This document shows positions 558 to 38,700 of a stretch of DNA of 52,651 bases, piece by piece; within the stretch, counting starts at the first letter, position 1; each line of letters opens with the position of its first letter. The notes under the pieces were generated by a model that had not been told where the DNA came from, did no database searches, and saw only the letters and a program-made list of their open reading frames with translations. Both the position numbers and the translations under genes were made by a program. This DNA comes from a virus. Lineage: Duplodnaviria > Caudoviricetes. The stretch lies in IMG/VR virus record IMGVR_UViG_3300037010_002190, positions 1 to 52,651 of that record; one strand, given 5' to 3'.

Positions 558-1076
558 ATGAAATTGAGTGATATCTTAGAAGAGAATGAACCTAAAAAAG
601 GAACGTATGCTGGTGTTCGTTATTCACCGGAATCAATCGAAGCTGTTCAAACATTTTTGAAAGAACATTCTATTCCTAATCCAGTTGCAGACGATAAAAT
701 TCACACAACATTATTGTATAGTCGTAAATTTTTACCCAATTACGAACCTAAAGGCAAACTAGCTAAGCCAATGCAGGCTAAGTTTCATCAGTATGATGTA
801 TGGAAAACGTCACCACAAGATGAAACACAAGAAAAGTGGAACTGTTTAGTTATGAAGTTGAAGTGTCCAGAATTAGAAGCTCTACACAAACAGTATATGG
901 ATGAACACAAAGCAACGTATGATTATCCTGTTTATACTCCTCACGTGACACTATCCTATAATATTGGAGATTATGATATCACAAAATTACCCAACTTTAC
1001 TGCTCCGTTACATATTACTGAAGAGTATGGTGAAGAATTAAATTTGGATTGGGCTAACACGCACGGTACTAAGTAA
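558..1076 (+). CDS. acb1: Anti-CBASS protein Acb1 (2H phosphoesterase, T4 gp57B family)
   Basis: Two HxT motifs (IPNPV..KIHTTLLYSR; YTPHVTLSYN) and C-terminal EY.E.LNLDWA lid, collinear with T4 Acb1. Confidence 0.9.
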   Translation: MKLSDILEENEPKKGTYAGVRYSPESIEAVQTFLKEHSIPNPVADDKIHTTLLYSRKFLPNYEPKGKLAKPMQAKFHQYDVWKTSPQDETQEKWNCLVMKLKCPELEALHKQYMDEHKATYDYPVYTPHVTLSYNIGDYDITKLPNFTAPLHITEEYGEELNLDWANTHGTK

Positions 1077-2620: not shown

Positions 2621-2651
2621 TTGACATTTTTAGAAGAGTACTATATAAATA
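2621..2651 (+). promoter_or_regulatory. Overlapping sigma70 and T4-late promoters of the tmRNA gene
   Basis: TTGACA (2621-2626), 17-nt spacer, TATAAA (2644-2649); the -10 box is also a perfect TATAAATA (2644-2651). Confidence 0.75.
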
Positions 2652-2656
2652 TATGT

Positions 2657-2947
2657 AATGGTTGTTAACTTTCTTTTGGAAAGGGTTTCAAGACACGGGT
2701 TCGACTCCCGTCCGGTCCACTTAGAGCATTGAACCAGTGTTCTAAGTGGGCCGGTCCAGGCTTCGATTGGGACAATGAGTACTTAAGCAAGCAACTCGGT
2801 AGGCGATGACCGTAAATCAAGCAAAAGCAGAAATGCAAACGACTCATATTACGGGGAAACTCGTCTAGCTGCTTAATGCTCTAGTGGGGTGCGAAACGCC
2901 TTATTAACCAACGTTTCATAAAGGGGGAACTTCGGTTCCCCTTTTTT
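2657..2947 (+). ncRNA. ssrA: Circularly permuted (two-piece) tmRNA; tag ANDSYYGETRLAA*
   Basis: T-arm ACGGG-TTCGACT-CCCGT (2695-2711) and 3' acceptor strand CCGGTCC-A (2712-2719) lie upstream of the 5' strand GGGCCGG (2748-2754); G3:U70 pair; P2 TTGGGAC/GTTTCAA; tag frame GCA AAC GAC..GCT GCT TAA at 2835-2876. Outer ends approximate. Confidence 0.92.
2921..2947 (+). terminator. Rho-independent terminator of tmRNA
   Basis: GGGGGAAC-TTCG-GTTCCCC followed by T6 (C-UUCG-G tetraloop). Confidence 0.9.
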
Positions 2948-2999
2948 ATTACACTCATCACATTATATATAGGTTAAGCAAAATCAATTTACACAAGAC

Positions 3000-3938
3000 A
3001 TGAAACGAACATCTACCAGCGAATTCATACAAAAGTCAGAAAAAATACACCAAGGACGTTATGATTACTCATTGGTAGTTTACATAAAAAATAATCAAAA
3101 GGTAAAAATAATTTGTCCTAGCCACGGAATATTCGAACAGACCCCAGTAAATCACTTATCGGGTGGAGGATGTGTCGTTTGTTGGAACCAGAAAAGAAAA
3201 AACGATTCAAATTGTCGCAGTTCTAGGGAAGCATTTATAGAAAAAGCTAGTGTGATACATCATGCGGTATATGATTATTCGTTGGTTGAATACACAAACG
3301 TACACACAAACGTAAAAATTATATGCAAAATTCATGGAATATTTGAACAAACACCTGGAAACCACCTTTCAAGAAAAACTAAATGCCCTCAATGTTCTTT
3401 AAACAATATGACATTAACAGTTGAACAACAAGAAAATGCACGTATGAAATTTATTCAAAAAGCAAACAATGTACATCAACGTAGATATGATTATTCATTG
3501 GTTAAATATATTTCATGTTCAAAAAAAGTAAAAATAATTTGTCCTAATCATGGAACATTCGAACAAACCCCAGACAAGCACATTTATGGGAAAAGTCCTA
3601 CTGGTTGTCCTCAATGTTCGCCTTCAGTATCACGTCCAGAAATAAATTGGTTAAATGTGTTAGGAATTACTTATCGTCAACATAAAATGAAACTGGATAA
3701 CAAAACCATTACGGTTGATGGTTTTGATCCTTCAACAAACACAGTGTATGAATTTTTAGGAGATTTTTGGCATGGAAATCCTCAAAAATATAAATCAGAT
3801 GACATCAATCCTAAAAATCATAAAACGTTTGGAGAGTTGTATCAAGCAACCGTAAACCGTAATACACTAATAACAAGTAATGGTTATAGGTTAGTACTTA
3901 TGTGGGAAAGTGATTGGAATATGCTACCCATTAAGTAA
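3000..3938 (+). CDS. Putative free-standing homing endonuclease: 3 Zn-finger (DUF723-like) repeats plus Vsr/DUF559-like nuclease
   Basis: 3x H..YDYS.V.Y...KV.IIC..HG.FEQTP..H..G.GC..C; C-terminal VDGFD..TNTVYEFLGDFWHGNP..MWESDW. Confidence 0.75.
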   Translation: MKRTSTSEFIQKSEKIHQGRYDYSLVVYIKNNQKVKIICPSHGIFEQTPVNHLSGGGCVVCWNQKRKNDSNCRSSREAFIEKASVIHHAVYDYSLVEYTNVHTNVKIICKIHGIFEQTPGNHLSRKTKCPQCSLNNMTLTVEQQENARMKFIQKANNVHQRRYDYSLVKYISCSKKVKIICPNHGTFEQTPDKHIYGKSPTGCPQCSPSVSRPEINWLNVLGITYRQHKMKLDNKTITVDGFDPSTNTVYEFLGDFWHGNPQKYKSDDINPKNHKTFGELYQATVNRNTLITSNGYRLVLMWESDWNMLPIK

Positions 3939-3941
3939 CAT

Positions 3942-3970
3942 TTGACATTTATGAGTATAGAGAGTAGAAT
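3942..3970 (+). promoter_or_regulatory. Sigma70-type promoter upstream of clpP-like gene
   Basis: TTGACA (3942-3947), 17 nt, TAGAAT (3965-3970); GAGGA RBS follows. Confidence 0.75.
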
Positions 3971-4002: not shown

Positions 4003-4743
4003 ATGAAAAAAAGTCAAAAACTATTTATGAAGTCGGAAGATTATGACACCGAATCAACAGTAAGTATTGTACATCCTCCTGCTTTCCAATATTACTCGAA
4101 TGTCAATCAAGCAGTTGAACATTGGTTTTATATTAGTTCAGCAATTCGTGATCCTAGTGAATATACAGATATGACGCATACAATCCGATCTGCCAGTCAA
4201 TATGATACAATTTATATTTGTCTCAATACTCCAGGAGGAAGACTGGATACAGGCATCCAACTAGTCAACGCTATGCGAGCTTCTCAAGCTAGTATCGTTG
4301 CTGTACTAGAAGCTGAGGCATCTTCCATGGGAGCTATTCTATTCTTAGCTGCAGATCAACATATTGTTCATGAAAATTGTAGGATGATGTTCCATGATTT
4401 TTCTGGAGGTGCAAGTTCAGGAAAGGGTAATGAACAATTCAAAGAATTAACAGCAGCAATCCAATTATATAATAAGTTAATGAAGAATGTCTGCGTTCCG
4501 TTCTTGTCTGAAGATGAAGTTGATCGAATTATCAAAGGAGAAGATTTTTGGATGGATTCAGACGAAATTACCAAACGATTGGAGTTGGTGTATAAACAAC
4601 GAGAAGAACCAGAAATTGAAGTAGGAGAAGTTGTAGTTGAACCTTCTAAAGTAAAGCGTTCGAAGAAAATGAAACCTGCACCAACACCACCGGCTGAAAT
4701 TCCAGTTGAAGCTGTAGTTGAAGCTAGGCGGCAACGCAAGTAA
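4003..4743 (+). CDS. clpP: ClpP-like serine protease (peptidase S14/crotonase fold)
   Basis: LNTPGG, ASSMGAILF (Ser), MMFHD (His), GEDFWM (Asp); Pro/Lys-rich C-terminal tail. Confidence 0.8.
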   Translation: MKKSQKLFMKSEDYDTESTVSIVHPPAFQYYSNVNQAVEHWFYISSAIRDPSEYTDMTHTIRSASQYDTIYICLNTPGGRLDTGIQLVNAMRASQASIVAVLEAEASSMGAILFLAADQHIVHENCRMMFHDFSGGASSGKGNEQFKELTAAIQLYNKLMKNVCVPFLSEDEVDRIIKGEDFWMDSDEITKRLELVYKQREEPEIEVGEVVVEPSKVKRSKKMKPAPTPPAEIPVEAVVEARRQRK

Positions 4744-7881: not shown

Positions 7882-8532
7882 ATGAAAAATCAAGCAAAAG
7901 CAGAAAAAGAAGTTAAATTACTCAAATTAAATTATGATCGTGACAGATCCTATTTAAATGAGCATGATGCAGATGTGGCTGCACGGAGTATTGAATTTTA
8001 TGACCAACAGTTGGAACTTGGAACATTTTCACCCGAGTATAAAAGCAAATGGTATCGTGGACCTTGGATGGAAACCTCAATGAGATATCAACACAACTCT
8101 GTTAGAGGATTCTGTACAGAGATGAGTTCAGTAATTTTGATAAATCTAGCGAATAAGGACGGTGGTCTTTACGCAAAGTTTGATGATCGGAAAACCAAAC
8201 AGAGAGAGGTAGATGGAACGGATATAATGCTGTGTAACTCAAACTGGCCTTATGATGTTCCTGCTCAAGTAAAAACGATTACCGTAAATAACAACAAGAC
8301 CACATTCACAGCATACAAACGTTTTTTTGATCCAAAGTACAAAATTGACCGGTTGATTCTTACTGACCCAGAAAATATGTTCTTGATCCATGTAGATTAT
8401 GTGTCATTTGAACGATATTTTAAAAGAATTTCAAAGGGGTCGTCAGAGGTAGAAATCAACATAGCACACATGTATGACCGTTACCACACACCTGTTAATT
8501 ACTGTTGGACAATAGATTATGATAAACTCTAA
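7882..8532 (+). CDS. Hypothetical protein, possible PD-(D/E)XK nuclease
   Basis: RGFCTE..DGTDIML..AQVKT spacing resembles a restriction-endonuclease-fold active site. Confidence 0.45.
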   Translation: MKNQAKAEKEVKLLKLNYDRDRSYLNEHDADVAARSIEFYDQQLELGTFSPEYKSKWYRGPWMETSMRYQHNSVRGFCTEMSSVILINLANKDGGLYAKFDDRKTKQREVDGTDIMLCNSNWPYDVPAQVKTITVNNNKTTFTAYKRFFDPKYKIDRLILTDPENMFLIHVDYVSFERYFKRISKGSSEVEINIAHMYDRYHTPVNYCWTIDYDKL

Positions 8533-10257: not shown

Positions 10258-11397
10258 TTGTCTGATATCAGTTTTAGCACAATCACTTTTATTGATAAAG
10301 CTAACTATGTACATCAATTCAAGTACACATATGAAAATTGTATATACGATTCAGTGCATACAAAAGTTGTCATAACATGTCCAACTCATGGGGATTTTAA
10401 GCAAACACCAGGAAATCATCTGTCTAAGCGTAGTGGTTGTCCTAAGTGTGCAACAGATTACAGAATACAAAAGAACACAAAATCTGTTGAACTGTTTTTA
10501 CATAACGCGCAGGTGCGTTTTCATAACAAATATGATTATTCTAAGATAAAATACGTGAACACAAAGACAAAGATTGAAATAGTATGTCCAGAACACGGAT
10601 CTTTTTTTCAGTCTCCGGAGAAGCATATAACATCAAAAATTGGATGTCCAGCATGTGCTTCAAAACACACAGCTAAACTATTAAGTATGTCATTTGAAGA
10701 ATTTGAAAAAAAGTCTTCTGTTGTACACAACAACAAGTATGATTATTCAATATCTAAAGACAATTTTGGGGATCACGATAAGATTGACATTCAGTGTAAC
10801 CAGCATGGAATATTTAACCAAACGATCACCAACCACTTGCATGGGAATGGATGCCCACTCTGTGCGAAAGAAAATCAATTTTTAACTCAAGCTGAATTTA
10901 TAAGTAAGTCTACACAAATTCACGGAAATGTATATGATTACAGACATGTTAATTATGTTAACACAAAAACCCCTGTTATCATATTATGCAGTCACCACGG
11001 ACGATTTAACCAAATACCACAAATTCATTTGCAAGGAAGTGGGTGTCAACTGTGTAGTCGTTCTGGTTTTTCAAAGAAAGCTATAGGTTGGTTAGATTCA
11101 GTATCCAATATAGAACATATTTTTATACAGCATGCTGGGAACGGTGGTGAATTTGTATTACCTGGGAGTAAAAAACGTGTTGACGGGTACTGCAAGGAAA
11201 CAAACACCGTGTATGAGTTTCATGGAGATTGTTGGCATGGCAACCCAAAAAAATTTAAAGATACTGATCATTGTCATCCATTAAATAAACGTATAACTGC
11301 AGGTGAATTGTACACACGAACAGTTGACAAAGACTTATTGATACAACAGTTAGGATTTAACTTAATTATTATGTGGGAATCAGATTACAATGAATGA
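10258..11397 (+). CDS. Putative free-standing homing endonuclease: 4 Zn-finger (DUF723-like) repeats plus Vsr/DUF559-like nuclease
   Basis: CPTHG, CPEHG, CNQHG, CSHHG repeats each with GCxxC; VDGYCKETNTVYEFHGDCWHGNP..MWESDY; overlaps topoisomerase start. Confidence 0.75.
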   Translation: MSDISFSTITFIDKANYVHQFKYTYENCIYDSVHTKVVITCPTHGDFKQTPGNHLSKRSGCPKCATDYRIQKNTKSVELFLHNAQVRFHNKYDYSKIKYVNTKTKIEIVCPEHGSFFQSPEKHITSKIGCPACASKHTAKLLSMSFEEFEKKSSVVHNNKYDYSISKDNFGDHDKIDIQCNQHGIFNQTITNHLHGNGCPLCAKENQFLTQAEFISKSTQIHGNVYDYRHVNYVNTKTPVIILCSHHGRFNQIPQIHLQGSGCQLCSRSGFSKKAIGWLDSVSNIEHIFIQHAGNGGEFVLPGSKKRVDGYCKETNTVYEFHGDCWHGNPKKFKDTDHCHPLNKRITAGELYTRTVDKDLLIQQLGFNLIIMWESDYNE

Positions 11398-14790: not shown

Positions 14791-15750
14791 CTATTTCATG
14801 TTTTTGTGGTGGTTATCTCTAAAATCGCTCTCCCAACACGTAATTAGATTATATCCCATGTTAATTATTGTTTGTTCTCTGGTTACTGTTCGGTCATATA
14901 GTTGTTTTGATGTTAAACGTTTGTTAAATGGATGACATAACTCCTCTGGTTTAAATATTTGTGGATTTCCGTGAACTGCGTCTCCGTAAAACTCATATAT
15001 CGTATTTGTTTCCCTACAGTACCCATCAGCTCTAAATCTTGTTCCGGGAATTTTGAATTCCCCAACATTCCCCGCATGTTCTATATACAAGTTATTGTCA
15101 GTTGATTGTATGGTTAACCATCTAATAGACTTCTTTGAAAACCCCTGAGGTTGACATTTTGGACAACCTATACCCCGTAAGTGTACTACTGGAGCTTGTT
15201 TAAATACGCCATGCTCATGACATAATATATTGATTTTGTCATGAGTTGACTTATACTCAACATCATCATAAGCATATGTGGTTCCATGTACCATATATGC
15301 TTGTGATTTAAATTCTACTAATGATTTTCTCTTATGTTCTGCTTTATATGAGTTTGCACATATCGGACATCCCGATTTTCTAGTGATGTGATTAGTCGGG
15401 GTAGATGTAAACCATCCGTGAACAGGACACCCTATAATAACGGGTGTTTTACTGTTTTTATATACAACTTTTGAGTAATCGTATTTTGAATCATGTGTTG
15501 CGTTACCTTTATGTATAAACTCCTGAACTGTTGATGTTCGTATTTTTGTTCTAGTATTAACCCCACAACCAGGACACCCATTGCCACGTAAGTGGTCGTT
15601 TGGTCGTTGGTTAAAGACACCATGTACGTCACAAACGATCGAAACTTTATCAGCACTTGTTTTATAATTTACCAAACTATAGTTAAATTTATCTCCATGT
15701 ACCTTTTTAGCTTTTTCAATGAATATCACTGTGTTATGTTTTGATGTCAT
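14791..15750 (-). CDS. Putative free-standing homing endonuclease: 3 Zn-finger (DUF723-like) repeats plus Vsr/DUF559-like nuclease
   Basis: CDVHG, CPVHG, CHEHG repeats; ADGYCRETNTIYEFYGDAVHGNP..CWESDF; begins directly after the RNR stop. Confidence 0.75.
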   Translation of the reverse strand: MTSKHNTVIFIEKAKKVHGDKFNYSLVNYKTSADKVSIVCDVHGVFNQRPNDHLRGNGCPGCGVNTRTKIRTSTVQEFIHKGNATHDSKYDYSKVVYKNSKTPVIIGCPVHGWFTSTPTNHITRKSGCPICANSYKAEHKRKSLVEFKSQAYMVHGTTYAYDDVEYKSTHDKINILCHEHGVFKQAPVVHLRGIGCPKCQPQGFSKKSIRWLTIQSTDNNLYIEHAGNVGEFKIPGTRFRADGYCRETNTIYEFYGDAVHGNPQIFKPEELCHPFNKRLTSKQLYDRTVTREQTIINMGYNLITCWESDFRDNHHKNMK

Positions 15751-15752
15751 TA

Positions 15753-18700
15753 TCAGCCACATTTACTATTTGAACACGATAAACATCTACGACAACCTTC
15801 TTGAAAAATCAACTGACCACCACACTCTCCACACGTCTCACCTTCTATTTTTTCCCCATCTTTAATGTATGTTGAAAGGAATTTACGAATTTGAAACAAG
15901 AATGATCCAACAAAAACGTCATCAACTTTATCTAACACGGCCACAACATTTTTGATAAGAACTCCATGGCGAAGGTTTAAACTGATAGCCCGTGCAATTT
16001 TGGTTGGATTATTGTCTACCTCAATTTTCTTTTGTGTGTCTTCAATCCATTTTGTGGGAATACCCTTATCATAAGCAAGATTAATCAATCGTTCAACCGC
16101 ATCGTGTGTGGTGACAGACTTCTCATAATGATTTGTGTGTACAAAAAAAGCGATTGGACGAGTACCAGAATTATCAAGAATTGTTGTCAAGTACCATTTT
16201 TTCCCATCAGCTTTAATAGTAGAAATTGTAGCTGGAGCTTGGTTTGGAACTTTTACATCTTCGATAATAATTTCTTCTTCACTGACATGCTCTGTTGATT
16301 CTTCTTTTGCTGACAATACAGTTGACATCGTTCCACTGCGGTATGTAGTTAGTCCTTTAATGAAACCAGTATTGTATGCATTCAAATACAACTCTTTAAA
16401 CTGATCAAACGAATACTCATTTGGCAAATTAACAGTTTTTGATATTGCAGAATCTATGTATCGTGCAAAACCTACGAGATCTGTTACGTGTTGATCAGCT
16501 GAAAGTTGAGTTGTCGTTGATGCCCAGTCTGCAGTTGCATCCCATTCACCCCGTCTCTTGAGCCAACGAACACCATAATCTTCACACAGAACTTCTTTAA
16601 CAAGTCCACGGTTTTTATCGATCTTGTATGTAATTCCATTGTGTGTACCTTTTAACATCTCTTCATCACCTTCTTTGGTGAATTTAAACATGTCTGTTTC
16701 ATACCACTCACCTTCATACCATTTAGGGCACACATCACGTATCTCTTCTGGCATTGTGTTGACAATAACAGTTCGGACATATTCAGCCATAAATACAGGT
16801 TCAATGCCACCAGACACAATGTTAGACATTATGCTCGAATTACCTGTAGGTTGAATTGACATTAGAGAACTGTTCCGAATTCCAGTTTTGGTCATATCAT
16901 CGATCACAGATACAGGAAGACCCAAACTCTGAATGAATGGAGATTTAACGTGTAACTCCGGTACACAATACTTAAACATACCTTTCTCTTTCGCTAAATT
17001 GACAGAAGCTGTGTATGTTGCTTTTGAGAATATTTGCATTAAATCATTTTGTAATTTAAGAGCTCGTTCAGATGCAAATGGTATTTTTAGCATATACAAC
17101 GCACTTCCCCACCCCATTAACCCACAACCAATTCGACGTTTGTTTCTCATAGAATCGATGTATTCTGGCAACGGCGCTGATGAATATTCGTTAACATTAT
17201 CAAGAAAACGGACCATATATTCTGCATGTTTTTCTATTTGATCAAAATCAAATCCTGTATGATCTTTGTTAATAAACTGTGTTAAGTTCAACGACGACAA
17301 ACAACAGATGTTACCCGGAGCAAGTACTTGTTCACCGCAGTTTCCTGTATAACACCACTCTGTTGGAAATACATGTTGATTGTGATATACACTAATGTCC
17401 CACACTTTACTAGTACCACATGGAACGACAGAGCTTACTTCTAAGTAACTGTTCGATATGTGAGATCTGGTTTTATTGGAAACAAAATTGACAACATCTT
17501 CCAACTTAGAACTTTTACTTGGGTGTGAAATGTTAAACACATTAAAAAAGTTAATTATGGCACTTCCATTAATTGCAACATCCCATCTTTCATATTCACG
17601 ATCATGCGTTTTTCCATTAGGAAACGATACTTGAGAATTTGACAGCGTTCGAGACTGTAAACTAACGGGAACTCCAGCAAACCCTAATAGTTTTCCAAAA
17701 TTCTTTGCTAGGTTTGATCCTGATGTGGTTAGTGTAATTCGCTGGTTTTTGTCATCAAACAACACACACCCATCTGCACTTAGTAGTCCATCCACAAATC
17801 CCTGGATGTAGAGATCATTACTACACCACACACTTGATGGAATATCTTTTTCACCAGGAATCATCCCATACTTCGTAAGCAAGTTGTTTACAAATTCTTG
17901 ATCAGCCCACTGGATGTACAATTCACCTTCTCTTTCACAGATTGTTGATGGATTAGACTTTAAAGAATTTACAATGCTTAACACACGTTCAGCCATTTCA
18001 CGCTCGTGTATCCCAAACGTAATCCCAACATCATATTCGTTGTTTGTGGGATCGTCTTTGTATTTCTTATCAAACCAACCATCACCAACCATATAACCCA
18101 TTAAAAATCCTTCATCGTGGGTTAGCGACATATCACCATATATTCCTATATTTTCATTTCGGTTTAATGGGATAAGGTCTCCAGGTTTAAGATCAGACGC
18201 ATCTACTTTATACAATCGGTTCATTCGTTCATCATACACAGGCCACCGATGTTGTTTTGTTGATTTTACTGATTTGTTTACACCAAATGTAATTTCTAAT
18301 AGTTCCTCGTTTTCACCAGACATTCTACACTCAGCCTCTGCCCATACACCATCAAGAGATTTGACCTCAAACTTTAACCCCTCTAACTGTTCTATTGGAA
18401 CAATCTTGTTTTTTGTGTGAACTAGTGTTCCTGCAGGCATCGATGGATTAGTTGCCATTATATGTTCACCATATGATAACGGATTAAAGTTATTTGCCCG
18501 ATCTAAAAACAATACTCCAGGTTCCGCACGTTGGTATGTAGAATCCATAATTAAATTCCATAACCAAGTTGCGGATATAACAGCATGAACTATGATTGGA
18601 TGACCCAAACTTTTCCATCGTTGAATGTTTCCATCCCAATCAGTTTTATAATTAATGTGTGTGGTATCTGGAAAAACTAATTCCCATTGATTCAACTGAT

Positions 18701-19463
18701 CTTTTTCTTGCTGTAGATCACTTATTAGTTGTTTGTTTGATTCAGTTAACTCATCAGTTTGTAATAATATAGTTTCAATTTGGTTGATTCGCCCAATTCT
18801 GTACATAAAATCATCAGTACAATTGACAGAGATATTAAACTTTGTTAGACGACCGGCTTGTTGTTTTGCTGTAATAAATTCGACAATGTCTGGATGCCAC
18901 ACATCTAGAACAGACATCATAGCACCTTTTCGGATCTTGCCTTTGGCCTTTTTGTTTACTGAAGTTCTTCCAGATCCTGCAGTAATAATTTCAGATGATT
19001 TATCAAACAATTCCATGTATTTAACAGCGCCTGGTGTCTCAACCCCTACTCCAGCAATAAATGAACCTCTGGGGCGGATATATGAAAAGTTTTCTCCCCA
19101 TCCACCTTCTGATTTTAAAGTAAATGCTTGCCCTTGCAGATTTTTTAAAATTCCATCTAAAGAGTCAATATCAAACTGTGCTCTTGGGGCAACGAAACAG
19201 TTTGCAAGTGTTGTTCCCTTCCATTCTGTTCCAGCATTTGACATAATTCTGCCACCTGGAACAACTTTAAAATTGGATAGCATGTTATAAAATATATTTT
19301 CCCATTCATGTTTCAGTGTATCCGTGGTTTCTACGCTGGAAATAGCCTTTGCAACTCTACGTAATGTATCATCTATTGTTTTATCTTTGTGATCTTTATA
19401 TGTCGTTCTCCAAACTTCTTCGGAAAAAGAATCCTCAAATATTGTACTGGGTGTGTTAAGCAT
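15753..19463 (-). CDS. nrdJ: Ribonucleotide reductase, probably class II (B12-dependent), intein-containing
   Basis: PGGRI, NCFV, NP|CGEQ, CCLSSLNL, SIQPTG, SAISKTVN, KGLTTYR; C-terminal EGC..C..C..SKC; no small subunit nearby. Confidence 0.85.
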   Translation of the reverse strand: MLNTPSTIFEDSFSEEVWRTTYKDHKDKTIDDTLRRVAKAISSVETTDTLKHEWENIFYNMLSNFKVVPGGRIMSNAGTEWKGTTLANCFVAPRAQFDIDSLDGILKNLQGQAFTLKSEGGWGENFSYIRPRGSFIAGVGVETPGAVKYMELFDKSSEIITAGSGRTSVNKKAKGKIRKGAMMSVLDVWHPDIVEFITAKQQAGRLTKFNISVNCTDDFMYRIGRINQIETILLQTDELTESNKQLISDLQQEKDQLNQWELVFPDTTHINYKTDWDGNIQRWKSLGHPIIVHAVISATWLWNLIMDSTYQRAEPGVLFLDRANNFNPLSYGEHIMATNPSMPAGTLVHTKNKIVPIEQLEGLKFEVKSLDGVWAEAECRMSGENEELLEITFGVNKSVKSTKQHRWPVYDERMNRLYKVDASDLKPGDLIPLNRNENIGIYGDMSLTHDEGFLMGYMVGDGWFDKKYKDDPTNNEYDVGITFGIHEREMAERVLSIVNSLKSNPSTICEREGELYIQWADQEFVNNLLTKYGMIPGEKDIPSSVWCSNDLYIQGFVDGLLSADGCVLFDDKNQRITLTTSGSNLAKNFGKLLGFAGVPVSLQSRTLSNSQVSFPNGKTHDREYERWDVAINGSAIINFFNVFNISHPSKSSKLEDVVNFVSNKTRSHISNSYLEVSSVVPCGTSKVWDISVYHNQHVFPTEWCYTGNCGEQVLAPGNICCLSSLNLTQFINKDHTGFDFDQIEKHAEYMVRFLDNVNEYSSAPLPEYIDSMRNKRRIGCGLMGWGSALYMLKIPFASERALKLQNDLMQIFSKATYTASVNLAKEKGMFKYCVPELHVKSPFIQSLGLPVSVIDDMTKTGIRNSSLMSIQPTGNSSIMSNIVSGGIEPVFMAEYVRTVIVNTMPEEIRDVCPKWYEGEWYETDMFKFTKEGDEEMLKGTHNGITYKIDKNRGLVKEVLCEDYGVRWLKRRGEWDATADWASTTTQLSADQHVTDLVGFARYIDSAISKTVNLPNEYSFDQFKELYLNAYNTGFIKGLTTYRSGTMSTVLSAKEESTEHVSEEEIIIEDVKVPNQAPATISTIKADGKKWYLTTILDNSGTRPIAFFVHTNHYEKSVTTHDAVERLINLAYDKGIPTKWIEDTQKKIEVDNNPTKIARAISLNLRHGVLIKNVVAVLDKVDDVFVGSFLFQIRKFLSTYIKDGEKIEGETCGECGGQLIFQEGCRRCLSCSNSKCG
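17340..18443 (-). mobile_element. Intein (368 aa) with LAGLIDADG homing endonuclease in the RNR active site
   Basis: Splits ATNP|CGEQ; begins SMPAGTLV, block B TKQHRW, LAGLIDADG-like GYMVGDG and DGLLSADG, block F VWDISV, ends YTGN before Cys+1. Confidence 0.93.
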
Positions 19464-30779: not shown

Positions 30780-32354
30780 TTACTTTTGTGATGGAAGATT
30801 ATAAACCCAGACTGAATTACCACAATCCCATATTCGCTCATATTTGTTGAGTTTCATGTTTTGATATTCCGTAAGCAGTGGGTCAAACGTTTTTAATATT
30901 TTTGACAATTTGTGTTTTTGAAATTGTATTCTAGAATACGTTATATAATTACCTTTTTCTTGGTTAAAGTAAAAATAATTAGGAGCAGAGTTGTGTGACA
31001 AAACAAATCCTAATTGTTTATACATATTCCCAGTATTCCATCGTTTATCTGAGTATGTTACAATTGATGCATTGTTATATTTCCGTACGAAATACTTGAA
31101 CAATTTAGATGGACCTCCAACAACTGTAGTATAAAGTTCAGAACAATATCGGAGTAACTCAAATGAAGTCTTTTTCGTGTATCTTGCTTTTGAAAAAGAC
31201 ATACATGCTACCAATGTTTCGTTATAGAATAATCCTATAGTTAGGAATGCTGATTTGCAACTTCCTTGTATATGTGTGCGTTCAAAAAAATCATTTCCTA
31301 CCTGAGATGTAATTTCTCTCACTACACACTTTCTTGCGAATATCTTAGTATTAAAACCGAGCAGTGAAGATAGTCGTGATTTGATTTTTTCTGCAGACTT
31401 TAAATATTCGTGTTCAAATATGTGAATCAAACGAATTCCTTGTGTTTCACATTGTTGTGTTTTGTGTAAATGGTATAATGGTTCTTTGTAATGTTGACTG
31501 TGCCAGTATAAACCATCACACTCTATTGCTAGATTATAACTTGGAATGTATATGTCCAACTCTTGTGGGGATATAATATTTCTACTTTTTTCACAATACA
31601 CTCCTAACGATTGAACATATTCTCGTATTAAATTTTCAAACGATGAACTATGGTCTTGTGTTGGAATTTCCAGATGATCCAAAATCTTCGAAATATATGC
31701 TTGACTTACACCCAATTTTTCTGCTACCACAAAAGTGCTTTTGTACTGTTCATATAACTCAATCATTTGTTCCTTATTAGAAAGAATGTTTCTTGTTATA
31801 TCATTAATTTTAGATCTGTTATAATTAGTGTCACCATATCTGTCAATCATAGTTAAATCACGTTTAATTTTTACATTTTTATCTTGATATGCATACTCAA
31901 CACCCCGTTTTAATAAATTAGTTTGTCTACGTCTGGTGTCTGAATCTGAAATGCAAGCAGGACAATTAGGACTACAGAATTCGTTGAATGCTCTTTGTGT
32001 GGTAGTATTCCAACCTAGTTTACCCCCACATTTACATGTGGGTGCTTCTGTTGTATTATTTTTAATATAATACAATCGTTCACGTAATGTGCTCGTTTGA
32101 GGCAAGAATTGTGTTTTTGTCTGTATATGCTCCCAAATCTCAGCATCACTTTTACTTCTTGCAGATATGATTTTTCTTGTATCATCAACGACATCACACC
32201 ATTTAACAACATCATCTATAGTTTTGATATTTAGATATTGTCTAAGACGTTTGGATAGTGTACTAACATATATTCCATTATTAGCAGCAACTTCAGTTAT
32301 GGAAGCTGTTGTATTCAATATTGTTTGGATCATTTCTTCAGTATTTGTTATCAA
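30780..32354 (-). CDS. Putative homing endonuclease (Hef/DUF559-like nuclease with HTH and Zn modules and C-terminal GNAT-like domain)
   Basis: ELDIYIP..NLAIECDGLYWHS..GIRLIHIFE.E; ARKC.VREI, ELLRYC, TYSDKRW, IWDCG; antisense insertion between gp25 and gp6. Confidence 0.7.
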   Translation of the reverse strand: MITNTEEMIQTILNTTASITEVAANNGIYVSTLSKRLRQYLNIKTIDDVVKWCDVVDDTRKIISARSKSDAEIWEHIQTKTQFLPQTSTLRERLYYIKNNTTEAPTCKCGGKLGWNTTTQRAFNEFCSPNCPACISDSDTRRRQTNLLKRGVEYAYQDKNVKIKRDLTMIDRYGDTNYNRSKINDITRNILSNKEQMIELYEQYKSTFVVAEKLGVSQAYISKILDHLEIPTQDHSSSFENLIREYVQSLGVYCEKSRNIISPQELDIYIPSYNLAIECDGLYWHSQHYKEPLYHLHKTQQCETQGIRLIHIFEHEYLKSAEKIKSRLSSLLGFNTKIFARKCVVREITSQVGNDFFERTHIQGSCKSAFLTIGLFYNETLVACMSFSKARYTKKTSFELLRYCSELYTTVVGGPSKLFKYFVRKYNNASIVTYSDKRWNTGNMYKQLGFVLSHNSAPNYFYFNQEKGNYITYSRIQFQKHKLSKILKTFDPLLTEYQNMKLNKYERIWDCGNSVWVYNLPSQK

Positions 32355-35685: not shown

Positions 35686-35717
35686 GAAGTTGATAATATA
35701 ACAATTGGTGTTAATTG

Positions 35718-38700
35718 ATGACAAACTTTTCCGATTACAAAAAAGTCAGAACAAACCTCTTTGAACAATTACCAGAAACGCTTCAGACAGATGTAAACGA
35801 AGCGTTTTTAGAAAACACGGTTAATCGTTATTTAACTAAATCTGAACTTTCCACTATATTTGGTACTATCGGAGAACAATCCCCATCCGTAGCTACATCC
35901 ACAAACATTGTAGAGTCTGAGGTTCAAAGACAAGCATATCAACTCCAGCCACTACTGTTCTCAAATATTGCGACTGTTAATCACATTTCATCTTACTCTG
36001 ACATTTTACGAGAAGCAGAAAATTTGGGTGTGGATCCACTCAGGCTACCACAATGGGGTAATACTACATCTTTTAACTTTGCTCCTCCGATAGATTTTGA
36101 TAAACTAGTTAACTGGTATCAATATTTTTGGTATGACGTTGGGAATCCAAATTCTTCTCCACAATACATCACGATAAAAAACAATTGTGCTGTTTCTACT
36201 GCACAATTGAAAACAAAGCAAACACAATATGATAATTTAATTCAATCTGGAGGAACACCGGCTGAGTTAGCCGCAATCCAAGTAGAACTTAATATTCTTG
36301 AGATTGCAAACAATTGTGCATGTTATGGAAACAACAACACAGGATGGGGAACAACACAATGGGATGATAATCCACTAAATTGGTGGAAAGAAATTAACCC
36401 AAGTATAATAACACCAAGCTCTCCATCTAGCGGTGACTTGTGGTTTAATACCAGTACATCTCAGTTGATGTACTATGATGGAACAGCATGGGAAATATTC
36501 ATTCCGGCTGAAACATCTTTTGGTAGTTTTGCATGGGATATGATTTCAAGCAGTATAGCTGGGATATCATGTAAAATGCAAAATGATCCATGGTCTCAAC
36601 AAAATAAATGGGTCCACCAAGAAGATGTACCAAACGTCGCTATTGCTAAGCGGGCTCAAATGCCAATAATTGAATATAATCCATTCCTTGAACTCAATGA
36701 GTGGACATACACGAAACGTATTTGGTCATACAGAGATTCATATTTGGATAACTGGACCACAGTAACAACATCCCCATCTTTATATGAGATGGGAATACCA
36801 ATAAATGTTACCAATATACAGAATCCAAAGTTAATCACAGTATCTGGAGACCATACAGAAATATTAACTAGAACGAATAAAATCAGGATTAGTGTTGGAT
36901 CGATAAATTCATTTTTCACTGTTGTATCTTCATCGTTTTCAGCAGCTAGTAATACTACAACGATGGTAGTGGTAGAATCTATTTCAACATTACTCCCATT
37001 CTCAAGTAATACTGTGGTAAAATTTGAATTAACAACAACTCAGAGTGGGAAGCCATGGGGTGGGTTTTTAAAACATTGGGCGTTGCTGACATCTGAAACT
37101 CCTGTTCCAATCAATACTCAGGTTGAGAATCCTGTAGTACTCTTGGAATCGTTCACTCAAAACTCTGTCGATCAACAAGTTTTTATGTTAACAAGTAATA
37201 CCTTTCTTACATCTCAAGACACAATCAGAGTATATGTTAATGGTCAGAGACAATATGGGACTTTCTTGGAGGGTTGGTCAACTACAGGAACCAACTTTAT
37301 TAGTACAGATGATGCTACATATAGTAGCATCAGTGGAACGAACTATGTCGGTCAGTCCGGAAAAATATATAATGGAGTATTAGGAAATGCTATTAGTTTC
37401 TTAAGAGTCCCAAAATTTGGATCAACGATTAGAATAGAACTTCATCCAGCTGCTTTGTCTGATCAATATCTCGGAGCTGTAGAAGTCAGAACAAGCACTG
37501 ATGCTGATTTTAACACAACACTGTTTCAAACAGATTATATAACTTTAGCAAATTTTAGAAAAGTTGATCAAGTTAAAACACAGACAAACCAGTACCCTAT
37601 ATTCGATTTGTTTGACGCAGCTGGGAACACCGCATATCAAGCGAACAGCATATTTGTATTTGAAGAAAATCAAAACTTTGCAATAAACACTAATATTGGG
37701 AAACGAATCGTTGTTAAATCAACAAACGCATCTCCCAAAGATTATAGTTTTCAGCAACTGTTAGTTGACCCATTGACGGGAAGTTTACTGTGTTATAAGG
37801 ATATGTGGGGGGTCAGTTCAACAAATCCTGAAGGTCTCCAGTCAATTTGGAGAACTGGAGTAACAGACAATGAATATATCCCAAAATATGTTAATGAATA
37901 TAGATTAACAGATGGAGAACAGTACACAGACTCCACAGGAGCAGTACAAACCGTTGATTTGCAAATAGGAAGTTCAGGAGGTTGTTGGGAGATTCCACAA
38001 CAACTGGTTTATAATGTTCATCACGAAAACAGATCCACGTTGTTATTTTCTGAATTGTATTCTCACTTAAAATCGATAATTGATGCTCAACCACAGCCTC
38101 AAGGATTTGAGAACATGACATCTAGTTATTATAGACTCATTGAAAATCCAAACTATGGGTTAGGTGGAACTATAAAGGAGTTTAACGACAGTTATGATAC
38201 GTTCTTGTCTGCATTGTTCCAAACAACCAGCACACCGAGATCTATTATCGATTTTGCTCAGACCCAAAATGACTATAATATTTTATCGTTACAGGATTAT
38301 TGTATTAAGAATTTTGTATCTCTTATTACTGGAACAACCAACACATTTGTTGTTGCATCAGATGTTTATGATTTGTTTGCAACTAAAGCGATTGAGAACT
38401 TTGAACAAAATAGTTTGAATATTTCTGTGTTTGGTGACACGACGGCTTATGATTCTGTATCAGGGAAGGGTGTTAAGAACTGGATAGCAACACTACCATT
38501 TCTCAAATTAGCATATCCAGTAACACCACTCGTTATGATAGATGAACAACTTGGAATCAAACAAGTGATGCATCATGACGGACACATATCTAGTATTAAT
38601 CTTCCAACTTCAACTGTTCAGTCATTGAACAATCAAGTAATTACCATTACAAATGGAGCTAAAGGATCACACAACTCAAGACCTATATGGACTGGAGTAT

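What the first reader, a model, noticed from the sequence alone, without database searches (positions are those of the whole stretch)
2657..2947. Phage-encoded circularly permuted (two-piece) tmRNA
Seen: the tRNA-like 3' half (T-arm 2695-2711, CCGGTCCA 2712-2719) precedes the 5' half (GGGCCGG 2748-2754). The two form a 7-bp acceptor stem with the alanyl-tRNA synthetase determinants G3:U70 and discriminator A. A resume codon at 2835 gives ANDSYYGETRLAA*, and a UUCG terminator closes the unit. CCA is not encoded. Known: permuted tmRNA genes occur in Alphaproteobacteria, some Betaproteobacteria, some cyanobacteria and jakobid mitochondria; phage tmRNAs are uncommon. Inference: this compact gene (acceptor piece only about 63 nt) may be a distinct phage lineage or an independent permutation, and would let the phage control ribosome rescue. 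No SmpB gene is in the window.
Basis: partly seen in the sequence, partly recalled or inferred. Interest (0 to 1): 0.9.

Follow-up and report, generated by a model that had tools for sequence, protein, structure and literature searches.

The report
Two-piece tmRNA gene in jumbo phage
This is a real, intact gene for a circularly permuted (two-piece) ribosome-rescue RNA carried by a fragment of a very large phage, but it is the already known betaproteobacterial type and such genes are common in related phages, so it is a new member of a known kind.

Summary
ARAGORN calls a permuted tmRNA. Rfam beta_tmRNA scores 138.3 bits against a cut-off of 84, and tmRNA_permuted scores 120.8 against 47.

The "independent permutation" idea fails. 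The alpha and cyano models reach only 41.6 and 42.1 bits, both below cut-off, so this is the beta type.

Across 39 homologues the named structure is 87.0% paired, against 68.5% after shuffling, and G3:U70 is kept in 39 of 39.

The window is about 15% of a jumbo myophage of roughly 350 kb, related to Xanthomonas phage XacN1 and Ralstonia phage RsoM2USA. Both carry unannotated beta-type permuted tmRNAs.

A generic permuted-tmRNA pattern hit at least 118 IMG/VR contigs. Phage two-piece tmRNAs were reported in 2022 (PMC9004378).

No SmpB gene is in the window, in 50 related viral records or in 5 cultured relatives, so host factors are presumably used.

No RNA data exist, so processing, charging and tagging are inferred. 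Nearest relative: about 72% identity. Verdict: real, ordinary, modest interest.

The parts
2621..2649 (+). Promoter-like site: TTGACA (2621-2626), 17-nt spacer, TATAAA (2644-2649). It would start the RNA at about 2656-2657.
   Evidence: Read by eye. It aligns with the TTGA...TAnAAT block at the 5' end of the Rfam beta_tmRNA model. The promoter scan did not list it because the second hexamer lacks the final T. Inferred.
2657..2947 (+). Whole permuted tmRNA transcription unit (precursor)
   Evidence: ARAGORN tmRNA* 2630-2967. Rfam beta_tmRNA 2607-2948 at 138.3 bits and tmRNA_permuted 2660-2876 at 120.8 bits.
2657..2719 (+). Acceptor piece (3' half of the tRNA-like domain), about 63 nt before CCA addition
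   Evidence: The 5' end is inferred from the promoter. The 3' end is inferred from discriminator A2719.
2660..2664 (+). P2 outer helix, 5' strand; pairs with 2792-2796
   Evidence: Rfam structure line. 80.6% of cells paired; 5 of 5 pairs show changes on both sides.
2685..2691 (+). P2 inner helix, 5' strand; pairs with 2767-2773
   Evidence: 96.7% of cells paired; 7 of 7 pairs show changes on both sides.
2695..2711 (+). T arm: stem 2695-2699 with 2707-2711, loop TTCGACT
   Evidence: 100% of cells paired in 39 sequences.
2712..2719 (+). Acceptor stem 3' strand CCGGTCC plus discriminator A2719. It is followed by CTT, so CCA is not encoded.
   Evidence: CCA is encoded in 72 of 99 unique sequences of the set; this gene is one of 4 with CTT.
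2720..2747 (+). Intervening sequence (28 nt) removed on maturation. In the precursor it extends the acceptor stem into a hairpin of about 20 bp.
   Evidence: Precursor minimum-free-energy fold. This segment varies in length (15-44 nt, median 31) and in sequence among relatives. Removal is inferred.
2748..2754 (+). Acceptor stem 5' strand GGGCCGG and start of the coding piece; G2750 pairs with T2716 (G3:U70)
   Evidence: Acceptor stem 100% paired; G3:U70 in 39 of 39; 4 of 7 pairs with changes on both sides.
2755..2773 (+). D-loop analogue with the conserved GGnTTCGA motif, then the P2 inner 3' strand (2767-2773)
   Evidence: Invariant columns G105, G106, T108-A112 of alignment A1. Pair counts.
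2792..2812 (+). P2 outer 3' strand (2792-2796), then the hairpin CGGT/ACCG (2797-2800 with 2809-2812) of the beta-type block upstream of the tag
   Evidence: Rfam structure line. Hairpin 81.4% paired; 4 of 4 pairs with changes on both sides. The block is about 85-92% identical over about 48 nt to Alcaligenaceae tmRNAs.
2835..2876 (+). Tag reading frame: GCA resume codon, ANDSYYGETRLAA, TAA stop at 2874-2876
   Evidence: Rfam alignment and alignment A1. Related phage tags: ANDAFYGEMRLAA, ANDAFYGEDRLAA, ANADVYEEARLAA.
2886..2917 (+). 3' pseudoknot candidate: GGGG 2886-2889 with CCTT 2899-2902, and GAAACG 2893-2898 with CGTTTC 2912-2917
   Evidence: The second stem is in the Rfam structure line. 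The first stem is my proposal from the conserved GGGG and CCTT columns. Paired cells: 79.0% and 57.3%; the alignment is poor here. Inconclusive.
2920..2949 (+). Intrinsic terminator: stem 2920-2944 with TTCG loop, then a T run
   Evidence: Terminator-like site called. Present in the Rfam model alignment and in the minimum-free-energy fold.
3000..3938 (+). Context: HNH/DUF723 homing-endonuclease gene lying between the tmRNA and the ClpP-like gene
   Evidence: PHROG 559 at E 2.8e-45. Pfam DUF723 and DUF4379. In relative L059 the tmRNA and the ClpP-like gene are directly adjacent.
4003..4743 (+). Context: ClpP-like serine peptidase gene with its own promoter-like site at 3942-3970
   Evidence: PHROG 1827 at E 1.6e-53. 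Pfam CLP_protease at 45.1 bits. Best PDB ClpP chain at E 9.9e-09, with the ASSMG and H motifs aligned. Promoter-like site matching 11 of 12.

Best explanation
It is a working ssrA gene of the betaproteobacterial two-piece type, carried by an XacN1-like jumbo myophage.

Inferred pathway:
1. Host RNA polymerase reads it from a sigma-70-like promoter to the terminator, giving a precursor of about 290 nt.
2. In the precursor the acceptor stem and the 28-nt intervening sequence form one long hairpin.
3. Host RNase P cuts before G2748. Host 3' processing trims to A2719. The host CCA-adding enzyme supplies CCA, which the gene lacks.
4. The acceptor piece of about 63 nt and the coding piece of about 200 nt stay together through the acceptor stem and helix P2.
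5. Host alanyl-tRNA synthetase charges it through G3:U70 and A73.
6. With host SmpB and EF-Tu it enters ribosomes stalled on broken mRNAs. Translation resumes at GCA 2835 and adds ANDSYYGETRLAA.
7. The LAA end sends the protein to ClpXP-type proteases.

The likely benefit to the phage is to keep ribosomes free and recycle truncated proteins while host mRNA is being destroyed or defence nucleases are cutting RNA.

Shown here: the gene, its family, and its conserved, co-varying structure. Inferred: every biochemical step.
For: Detection: ARAGORN calls a permuted tmRNA. Rfam beta_tmRNA gives 138.3 bits against a cut-off of 84, over the full model 1-331. tmRNA_permuted gives 120.8 bits against 47.

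Type: alpha 41.6 and cyano 42.1 bits, both below cut-off.

Structure, in alignment A1 (the window, 36 viral homologues, 2 bacterial):
- 87.0% of cells paired, against 68.5% after shuffling (0 of 500 shuffles reach it) and 42.6-51.2% with partners slid.
- 31 of 40 pairs show changes on both sides.
- Acceptor and T stems are 100% paired, and G3:U70 is kept in 39 of 39.

The tag frame is intact and ends in LAA plus a stop. Similar 13-residue tags occur in other large viral contigs. A terminator is called.

Kept in the phage clade:
- Beta_tmRNA passes its cut-off in 37 of 50 viral records examined, and in cultured relatives XacN1 (two copies) and RsoM2USA.
- tmRNA_permuted passes in 3 of 5 cultured relatives.
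- A distant relative (L059; proteins 34-52% identical) keeps the order DHFR, Acb1, tmRNA, ClpP-like, primase, topoisomerase II.

Dependence on host SmpB is suggested by its absence: 0 of 1 (window), 0 of 50 records including 0 of 7 that are at least 90% complete, and 0 of 5 cultured genomes.

Prior reports that large phages carry tmRNAs: PMC7162821 (passages) and PMC9004378 (passages).
Against: - No RNA evidence at all.
- CCA is not encoded, unlike 72 of 99 unique sequences in the set, so maturation needs an extra step.
- The middle of P2 fits the Rfam model poorly (mismatch marks). A thermodynamic co-fold of the two pieces recovers the acceptor stem, T arm and terminator but not P2.
- The promoter is read by eye and was not listed by the scan.
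- The host is unknown and the window is only about 15% of the genome, so absence of SmpB in this phage is not shown.
- The gene sits on a long branch, with at most 60% identity over 326 tree columns and 71.7% over 265 nt by blastn to its nearest relative. Some loss of function cannot be excluded.
Confidence: 0.8

Rival explanations
1. Decoy or inhibitor. The RNA mainly soaks up host SmpB, alanyl-tRNA synthetase or ribosomes to shut down the host's own trans-translation, and tagging is secondary or absent.
For: No SmpB gene in the window, in 50 related records or in 5 cultured relatives, so the phage RNA must compete for host SmpB. A phage RNA made of the tRNA-like domain alone (mycobacteriophage DS6A) is on record, and a similar molecule inhibits tmRNA (PMC4131195 and PMC11915505, passages). 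The missing CCA could lower charging.
Against: A decoy needs no reading frame. Here the resume codon, a 13-codon frame, the LAA end and the stop are all intact. The frame is kept with varied sequence across relatives. The beta-type block upstream of the tag is also conserved.
Confidence: 0.08
2. Passenger or relic. The gene was picked up from a bacterium and is drifting without use to the phage.
For: Long branch and no close relative. No encoded CCA. Mismatches in the middle of P2. The position of the gene differs among cultured relatives: in XacN1 it lies in the terminal repeats among tRNA genes.
Against: All determinants are intact, and pairs are kept by changes on both sides across viral homologues. 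This is the signature of selection, not drift. Gene order is conserved with a relative whose proteins are only 34-52% identical. Bacterial beta-type genes resemble it only over about 48 nt, so a recent capture is unlikely.
Confidence: 0.07
3. One reading: a separate permutation event, or a fourth structural lineage specific to phages.
For: Tags in this phage set are often 12-14 residues or longer, whereas 30 of the 30 bacterial beta-type genes that ARAGORN called had 9-12 residues, mostly 10. Contigs binned into non-betaproteobacterial metagenome genomes (L133, L144, L147) nest inside viral clades with good support. The beta type passed its cut-off in only 4 of 151 genomes sampled from the order of one bacterial carrier.
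Against: Full-length match to the beta model at 138.3 bits against about 42 for the other two. It shares the beta block before the tag and the CCTTATTAACCAA loop after it. Deep tree nodes are unresolved, and no well-supported clade holds this gene apart from bacterial ones.
Confidence: 0.05

Closest known systems
Rfam RF01850 beta_tmRNA (two-piece tmRNA of some Betaproteobacteria)
   Same: Same gene order, with the acceptor piece first. Same helices, the same conserved block before the resume codon, the same loop after the tag and the same terminator. Full-length match at 138.3 bits. The tag starts AND and ends LAA.
   Different: Carried by a phage of 34-40% G+C. CCA is not encoded. The tag has 13 residues, against 10 in most bacterial examples seen here. 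Only about 48 nt are clearly similar by blastn to bacterial copies.
Unannotated permuted tmRNAs of cultured jumbo phages XacN1, RsoM2USA and Xoo-sp13
   Same: Same phage group by baseplate wedge protein (44-48% identity). Beta_tmRNA passes its cut-off in XacN1 (107.8 bits, two copies) and RsoM2USA (92 bits). tmRNA_permuted also passes in Xoo-sp13. None has SmpB.
   Different: Sequences are very different (blastn matches of only 29-32 nt). In XacN1 the gene lies in the terminal repeats among tRNA genes, about 49 kb from the ClpP-like gene. The XacN1 tag is ANANTFDYALAA.
Two-piece tmRNA of phage Melnitz and related marine myophages (PMC9004378)
   Same: A phage-borne permuted ssrA behind an early-type promoter. 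The paper proposes similar roles (keeping the translation machinery going, recycling host proteins). It counts 53 two-piece forms among 133 unique phage tmRNAs (passages).
   Different: The paper places Melnitz's gene with the alphaproteobacterial lineage and links it to a glutamine riboswitch. Here the type is beta, and Rfam found no riboswitch in the window.
One-piece tmRNAs of mycobacteriophages and Bacillus phage G, and the tRNA-like-domain-only RNA of DS6A (PMC4131195)
   Same: Phage-encoded members of the tmRNA system (passages).
   Different: Those are colinear, one-piece genes, or lack a tag frame. This one is permuted and has a full tag frame.
Caulobacter two-piece tmRNA (Keiler, Shapiro and Williams 2000; seen only as a reference, not read)
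   Same: The experimentally studied model for how a permuted gene yields two paired RNAs that work in tagging (from recall and the summary sentence).
   Different: Alpha type; the alpha model scores only 41.6 bits here.

Membership tests
beta_tmRNA (RF01850) | Covariance-model score at or above the curated cut-off (84 bits) over the whole model | tested here: met
   138.3 bits, model positions 1-331, E 3.3e-42
beta_tmRNA (RF01850) | Circularly permuted gene order: the 3' half of the tRNA-like domain lies upstream of the 5' half | tested here: met
   T arm and CCGGTCCA at 2695-2719 precede GGGCCGG at 2748-2754. ARAGORN marks the gene as permuted.
beta_tmRNA (RF01850) | Acceptor stem with G3:U70 and discriminator A (alanine identity) | tested here: met
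   G2750:T2716 and A2719. G:U in 39 of 39 aligned homologues; stem 100% paired.
beta_tmRNA (RF01850) | Helix P2 joining the acceptor piece to the coding piece | tested here: met
   Inner helix 96.7% paired, with 7 of 7 pairs changed on both sides. Outer helix 80.6% paired. The middle part fits poorly, and a thermodynamic co-fold does not recover P2.
beta_tmRNA (RF01850) | Beta-type conserved block and hairpin just upstream of the resume codon | tested here: met
   2797-2833 aligns to the model. About 48 nt at 85-92% identity to Alcaligenaceae tmRNAs. The hairpin co-varies.
beta_tmRNA (RF01850) | Tag frame opening with an alanine codon, ending in a hydrophobic ...LAA and a stop | tested here: met
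   GCA 2835 to TAA 2874-2876 gives ANDSYYGETRLAA
beta_tmRNA (RF01850) | Encoded 3' CCA on the acceptor piece (usual but not universal) | tested here: not met
   A2719 is followed by CTT. CCA is encoded in 72 of 99 unique sequences of the set, so 27 lack it.
beta_tmRNA (RF01850) | Precursor is cut into two RNAs that stay paired | not testable with these tools
   No RNA run holds the stretch. Only DNA contigs could be laid.
beta_tmRNA (RF01850) | Charged with alanine; works with SmpB | not testable with these tools
   Needs biochemistry. No SmpB gene in the window or in relatives.
beta_tmRNA (RF01850) | Resides in a betaproteobacterial genome | tested here: not met
   It lies in a virus record. 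Cultured relatives with the same type infect Xanthomonas (Gammaproteobacteria) and Ralstonia (Betaproteobacteria).
tmRNA_permuted (RF04321) | Score at or above the cut-off (47 bits) | tested here: met
   120.8 bits, model positions 1-213
alpha_tmRNA (RF01849) | Score at or above the cut-off (50 bits) | tested here: not met
   41.6 bits
cyano_tmRNA (RF01851) | Score at or above the cut-off (70 bits) | tested here: not met
   42.1 bits
Standard one-piece tmRNA (RF00023) | Colinear gene with the 5' and 3' tRNA-like halves at the two ends | tested here: not met
   The gene order is permuted. RF00023 is not listed, where overlapping matches within one clan are reduced to the best.

The most novel reading that the evidence does not exclude
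The beta-type two-piece tmRNA may be an old, vertically kept gene of the XacN1-like jumbo phages rather than a recent host capture. It would work in hosts whose own tmRNA is one-piece, Xanthomonas for example. In one sub-group, including this phage, it sits next to a phage ClpP-like peptidase, which would make a phage-run 'tag and degrade' unit. The patchy bacterial beta-type genes might then descend from phage copies.
Probability: 0.12. Interest if true: 0.6.

Novelty: new member of a known kind. Interest (0 to 1): 0.25.

Why it matters
The call is correct, and it adds a divergent sequence to a known class. It does not open a new class.

Three points have modest value:
- Cultured jumbo phages XacN1 and RsoM2USA carry beta-type permuted tmRNAs that their GenBank records do not annotate. 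Annotation pipelines miss these genes.
- The type of phage tmRNA need not match the host's class: the beta type occurs in a Xanthomonas phage. tmRNA is therefore a weak host marker.
- None of the 56 phage records examined has SmpB. These RNAs must therefore use host SmpB, which is a simple testable dependence.

Tried and rejected
- **Exact T-arm/acceptor motif in IMG/VR:** 7 loci. Of these, 4 held standard one-piece tmRNAs, 2 held tRNAs and 1 held nothing called. There is no near-identical copy.
- **blastn and megablast against 50,697 phage records:** no match. The tool warns that records near the window's own genome may be left out.
- **Sharkady and Williams 2004 (PMC516066):** not held. The defining paper of the beta lineage was therefore not read. 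Statements about three independent bacterial lineages rest on passages of PMC9004378 and PMC11915505.
- **Expression:** no RNA holder listed. Laying the four DNA runs gave contigs only, which says nothing about RNA ends.
- **Tree of 69 tmRNA genes:** deep forks are weak or open and this gene is on a long branch. It decides neither for nor against a phage-only lineage.
  - Rows used: the window, 38 viral genes, and 30 bacterial or metagenome-genome genes.
  - L118 was added by pattern because ARAGORN did not call it.
  - L142 and L157 dropped out because ARAGORN made no call. L163 was left out because it is the same place as L139.
- **tmRNA-ClpP linkage as a functional unit:**
  - Near (0.2-2 kb): this window, the L018/L059 group, L030, L058, L015, L123 and RsoM2USA.
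  - Far (9-74 kb): G006, G007, G011, G045, XacN1 and Xoo-sp13.
  - That is 7 near and 6 far, and the near ones may simply share ancestry. I keep it only as a lead.
- **tblastn of 44 window ORFs against the 29 bacterial loci:** only bacterial gyrase-like matches. It gave no evidence that the metagenome-genome contigs are kin of this phage.
- **Thermodynamic co-fold:** did not reproduce P2. I rely on comparative evidence instead.
- **Literature searches:** run with min_terms 1, so they returned only generic ClpP or tmRNA papers and were uninformative.
- **PMC12595487:** concerns islands that integrate beside bacterial tmRNA, not phage tmRNA.
- **Supplements:** closed. Table S1 of PMC9004378, which may already list XacN1-type genes, was not seen.
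- **Not in print, as far as searched:** XacN1 plus tmRNA gave 8 papers, none of them the XacN1 genome paper PMC5852040, which is held. No paper holding both RsoM2USA and tmRNA appeared in the 8 listed.
Full report
**What is there.**
- T arm at 2695-2711 with loop TTCGACT.
- Acceptor 3' strand plus discriminator, CCGGTCCA, at 2712-2719.
- A 28-nt spacer at 2720-2747.
- Acceptor 5' strand GGGCCGG at 2748-2754. The stem has seven pairs, including G2750:T2716, the G3:U70 alanine determinant.
- The conserved GGnTTCGA motif.
- A reading frame from GCA 2835 to TAA 2874-2876 that spells ANDSYYGETRLAA.
- A GC-rich hairpin with a TTCG loop and a T run, which the scan tool calls terminator-like at 2920-2944.
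- After A2719 comes CTT, so CCA is not encoded.

ARAGORN finds exactly one RNA gene in the 52,651 bases, a permuted tmRNA. Its tag starts ten codons too early. Rfam gives beta_tmRNA 138.3 bits (cut-off 84, E 3.3e-42, whole model) and tmRNA_permuted 120.8 bits (cut-off 47).

**Which kind.** I scored each permuted family separately on the window.

| Rfam family | Bits | Cut-off |
|---|---|---|
| beta_tmRNA | 138.3 | 84 |
| alpha_tmRNA | 41.6 | 50 |
| cyano_tmRNA | 42.1 | 70 |

The gene also shares the beta-specific block just upstream of the resume codon with Alcaligenaceae (Advenella, Pelistega, Brackiella). That match covers about 48 nt at 85-92% identity in most of the 29 loci. It also shares the conserved loop CCTTATTAACCAA after the tag. 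This is therefore the known beta architecture, not a separate permutation. The acceptor piece of about 63 nt is what the beta model expects.

**Structure.** I aligned the window with 36 viral homologues and 2 bacterial ones (alignment A1). I then counted pairs for a structure taken from the Rfam line plus one pseudoknot stem of my own.
- 87.0% of cells pair, against 68.5% after shuffling (0 of 500 shuffles reach it) and 42.6-51.2% when partners are slid.
- 31 of 40 pairs show changes on both sides.
- The acceptor and T stems are 100% paired, and G3:U70 is invariant (39 of 39).
- P2 inner helix (2685-2691 with 2767-2773): 96.7% paired.
- P2 outer helix (2660-2664 with 2792-2796): 80.6% paired.
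- Hairpin before the tag (2797-2800 with 2809-2812): 81.4% paired.
- The 3' region aligns badly, and its stems reach 79.0% and 57.3%, which is inconclusive.

Two caveats apply. The structure was derived partly from this sequence, which favours it over the slid controls. A thermodynamic co-fold of the two pieces recovers the acceptor stem, T arm, spacer hairpin and terminator, but not P2.

**Whose gene.** The window is an IMG/VR virus record, linear, with estimated completeness 15%. That implies a genome near 350 kb. G+C is 34-40%. The genes are those of a large myophage:
- Acb1
- a HAD domain of RNA-repair proteins
- dihydrofolate reductase
- primase
- both topoisomerase II subunits
- ribonucleotide reductase with a LAGLIDADG insert
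- DnaB helicase
- baseplate hub and wedge
- a 3,873-codon ORF
- several HNH/DUF723 endonucleases

The baseplate wedge protein is 44-48% identical to those of Xanthomonas phages XacN1 and Xoo-sp13, Stenotrophomonas phages CM1 and RAS14, and Ralstonia phage RsoM2USA. As here, a giant ORF follows it in those phages.

**How common.** ARAGORN called a permuted tmRNA in 109 of these 118 loci. I chose 50 records with a bias towards similarity to the window, and 37 of them pass the beta_tmRNA cut-off. Many are fragments of 50-100 kb at 13-26% completeness, meaning similar jumbo phages. One is a complete genome of 307 kb.

Among five cultured relatives, beta_tmRNA passes in XacN1 (two copies in the terminal repeats, 107.8 bits) and RsoM2USA (92 bits). 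tmRNA_permuted also passes in Xoo-sp13. The GenBank records of XacN1 and RsoM2USA do not annotate these genes. The XacN1 genome paper is held but is not among the 8 papers that contain both 'XacN1' and 'tmRNA'.

In print:
- Huge phages carry tmRNAs and SmpB (PMC7162821, passages).
- Of 133 unique phage tmRNAs, 53 were two-piece by ARAGORN, and a figure legend states that the three bacterial lineages are shared with their phages (PMC9004378, passages).

The kind is therefore known.

**Relation to bacteria.** The nearest sequence is viral: L118, at 71.7% over 265 nt, with tag ANDAQFEGLRLAA by eye. Bacterial genes match over only about 48 nt.

In a sample of 151 genomes from the order of one bacterial carrier, 4 pass the beta cut-off. 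One of the 147 others is the unpublished genome G079. Those 4 have no standard tmRNA above cut-off. A metagenome genome labelled Alteromonadales has a standard tmRNA plus a beta-type gene on a separate 46-kb contig.

In the tree, three such metagenome-genome contigs nest inside viral clades. The deep forks are unresolved and the window's gene sits on a long branch. A phage-only lineage is neither shown nor excluded.

Host class and tmRNA type can differ. XacN1 infects a gammaproteobacterium. Permuted forms are described for Alpha- and Betaproteobacteria and Cyanobacteria (PMC11915505, passage). That Xanthomonas itself has a one-piece tmRNA is my recollection and was not tested.

**How it probably works.** All of this is inferred.
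1. A sigma-70-like promoter (TTGACA, 17 nt, TATAAA, read by eye, not listed) would start the RNA near 2657, and the terminator ends it near 2947.
2. The acceptor stem and spacer form one hairpin in the precursor.
3. RNase P would cut before G2748. 3' trimming would stop at A2719, and the host CCA-adding enzyme would finish the end.
4. CCA is encoded in 72 of 99 unique sequences of the set, so this gene belongs to the minority of 27 without it.
5. Charging, delivery and tagging would use host alanyl-tRNA synthetase, EF-Tu and SmpB.

SmpB is absent from the window, from 50 of 50 related records including 7 that are at least 90% complete, and from 5 of 5 cultured relatives. From recall, the tag keeps an AND...Y start and an LAA end, the features used by SspB and ClpX in E. 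coli.

**Neighbourhood.** A relative with 34-52% protein identity (L059) keeps the order DHFR, Acb1, tmRNA, ClpP-like, primase, topoisomerase II. Here an HNH endonuclease gene (3000-3938) sits between the tmRNA and the ClpP-like gene (4003-4743). The ClpP-like protein aligns to solved ClpP structures with the serine and histidine motifs in place. A homologue was found in 5 of 5 cultured relatives. It lies within about 2 kb of the tmRNA in 7 carriers and 9-74 kb away in 6. The linkage is a lead, not a finding.

**Verdict.** This is a real, intact, beta-type two-piece tmRNA gene on a jumbo-phage fragment. It is a divergent new member of a known kind. Function is inferred, and no RNA data were available.

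Noticed in passing
window 2814-2833 and 7887-7906: A 20-base exact direct repeat. The stretch just upstream of the tmRNA resume codon recurs at codons 2-8 of an unassigned 216-codon ORF (7882-8532). For the 18-base core, 2 matches were found against 0.01 expected by chance. The meaning is unknown. The repeat also explains some stray contig ends.
   Followed up: partly
window 4003-4743; L059, L015, L123, L030; MG752970.1 330082-330747: A ClpP-like peptidase gene lies within about 2 kb of the permuted tmRNA in this phage and 6 other carriers. It lies 9-74 kb away in 6 more, including XacN1 and Xoo-sp13. This may be shared ancestry or a functional pairing of tag donor and protease.
   Followed up: partly
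AP018399.1 37177-37596 and 355972-356391; MG752970.1 331649-331960; MN047793.1 39030-39373: Cultured jumbo phages XacN1, RsoM2USA and Xoo-sp13 carry permuted tmRNA genes. The XacN1 and RsoM2USA records do not annotate them; I did not check the Xoo-sp13 annotation. In RsoM2USA a predicted ORF (_468) overlaps the RNA gene.
   Followed up: partly
window 3000-3938, 10258-11397, 14791-15762 (-), 30780-32354 (-): Four HNH/DUF723/treble-clef homing-endonuclease-like genes. One sits between the tmRNA and the ClpP-like gene. One sits between the two topoisomerase II subunit genes.
   Followed up: no
window 15753-19463 (-): A ribonucleotide reductase large subunit of 1,236 residues with a LAGLIDADG domain inside the barrel domain. 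This suggests an intein or a homing-endonuclease insertion.
   Followed up: no
window 558-1076 and 1343-1876: An Acb1 anti-CBASS phosphodiesterase homologue (118.6 bits) and a HAD domain of 'Swiss Army Knife' RNA-repair proteins lie just upstream of the tmRNA. These are counter-defence and RNA-repair genes close to a ribosome-rescue RNA.
   Followed up: no
G052 contig C228 (L147), L133, L144: Contigs binned into metagenome genomes labelled Alteromonadales, Crocinitomicaceae and Bifidobacterium carry beta-type permuted tmRNAs that cluster with viral ones. G052 also has a standard tmRNA elsewhere. These are probably mis-binned phage contigs.
   Followed up: partly
run X2, laid on window 2657-2806: A 256-base contig at depth about 189 matches both halves of the tRNA-like domain but has 101 other letters in place of the 41 between 2720 and 2762. 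This is a related permuted tmRNA from a much more abundant organism or phage in the same kind of sample.
   Followed up: no
window 35715-47336: A 3,873-codon ORF directly after the baseplate wedge gene. The same arrangement occurs in XacN1, Xoo-sp13, RAS14 and RsoM2USA.
   Followed up: no
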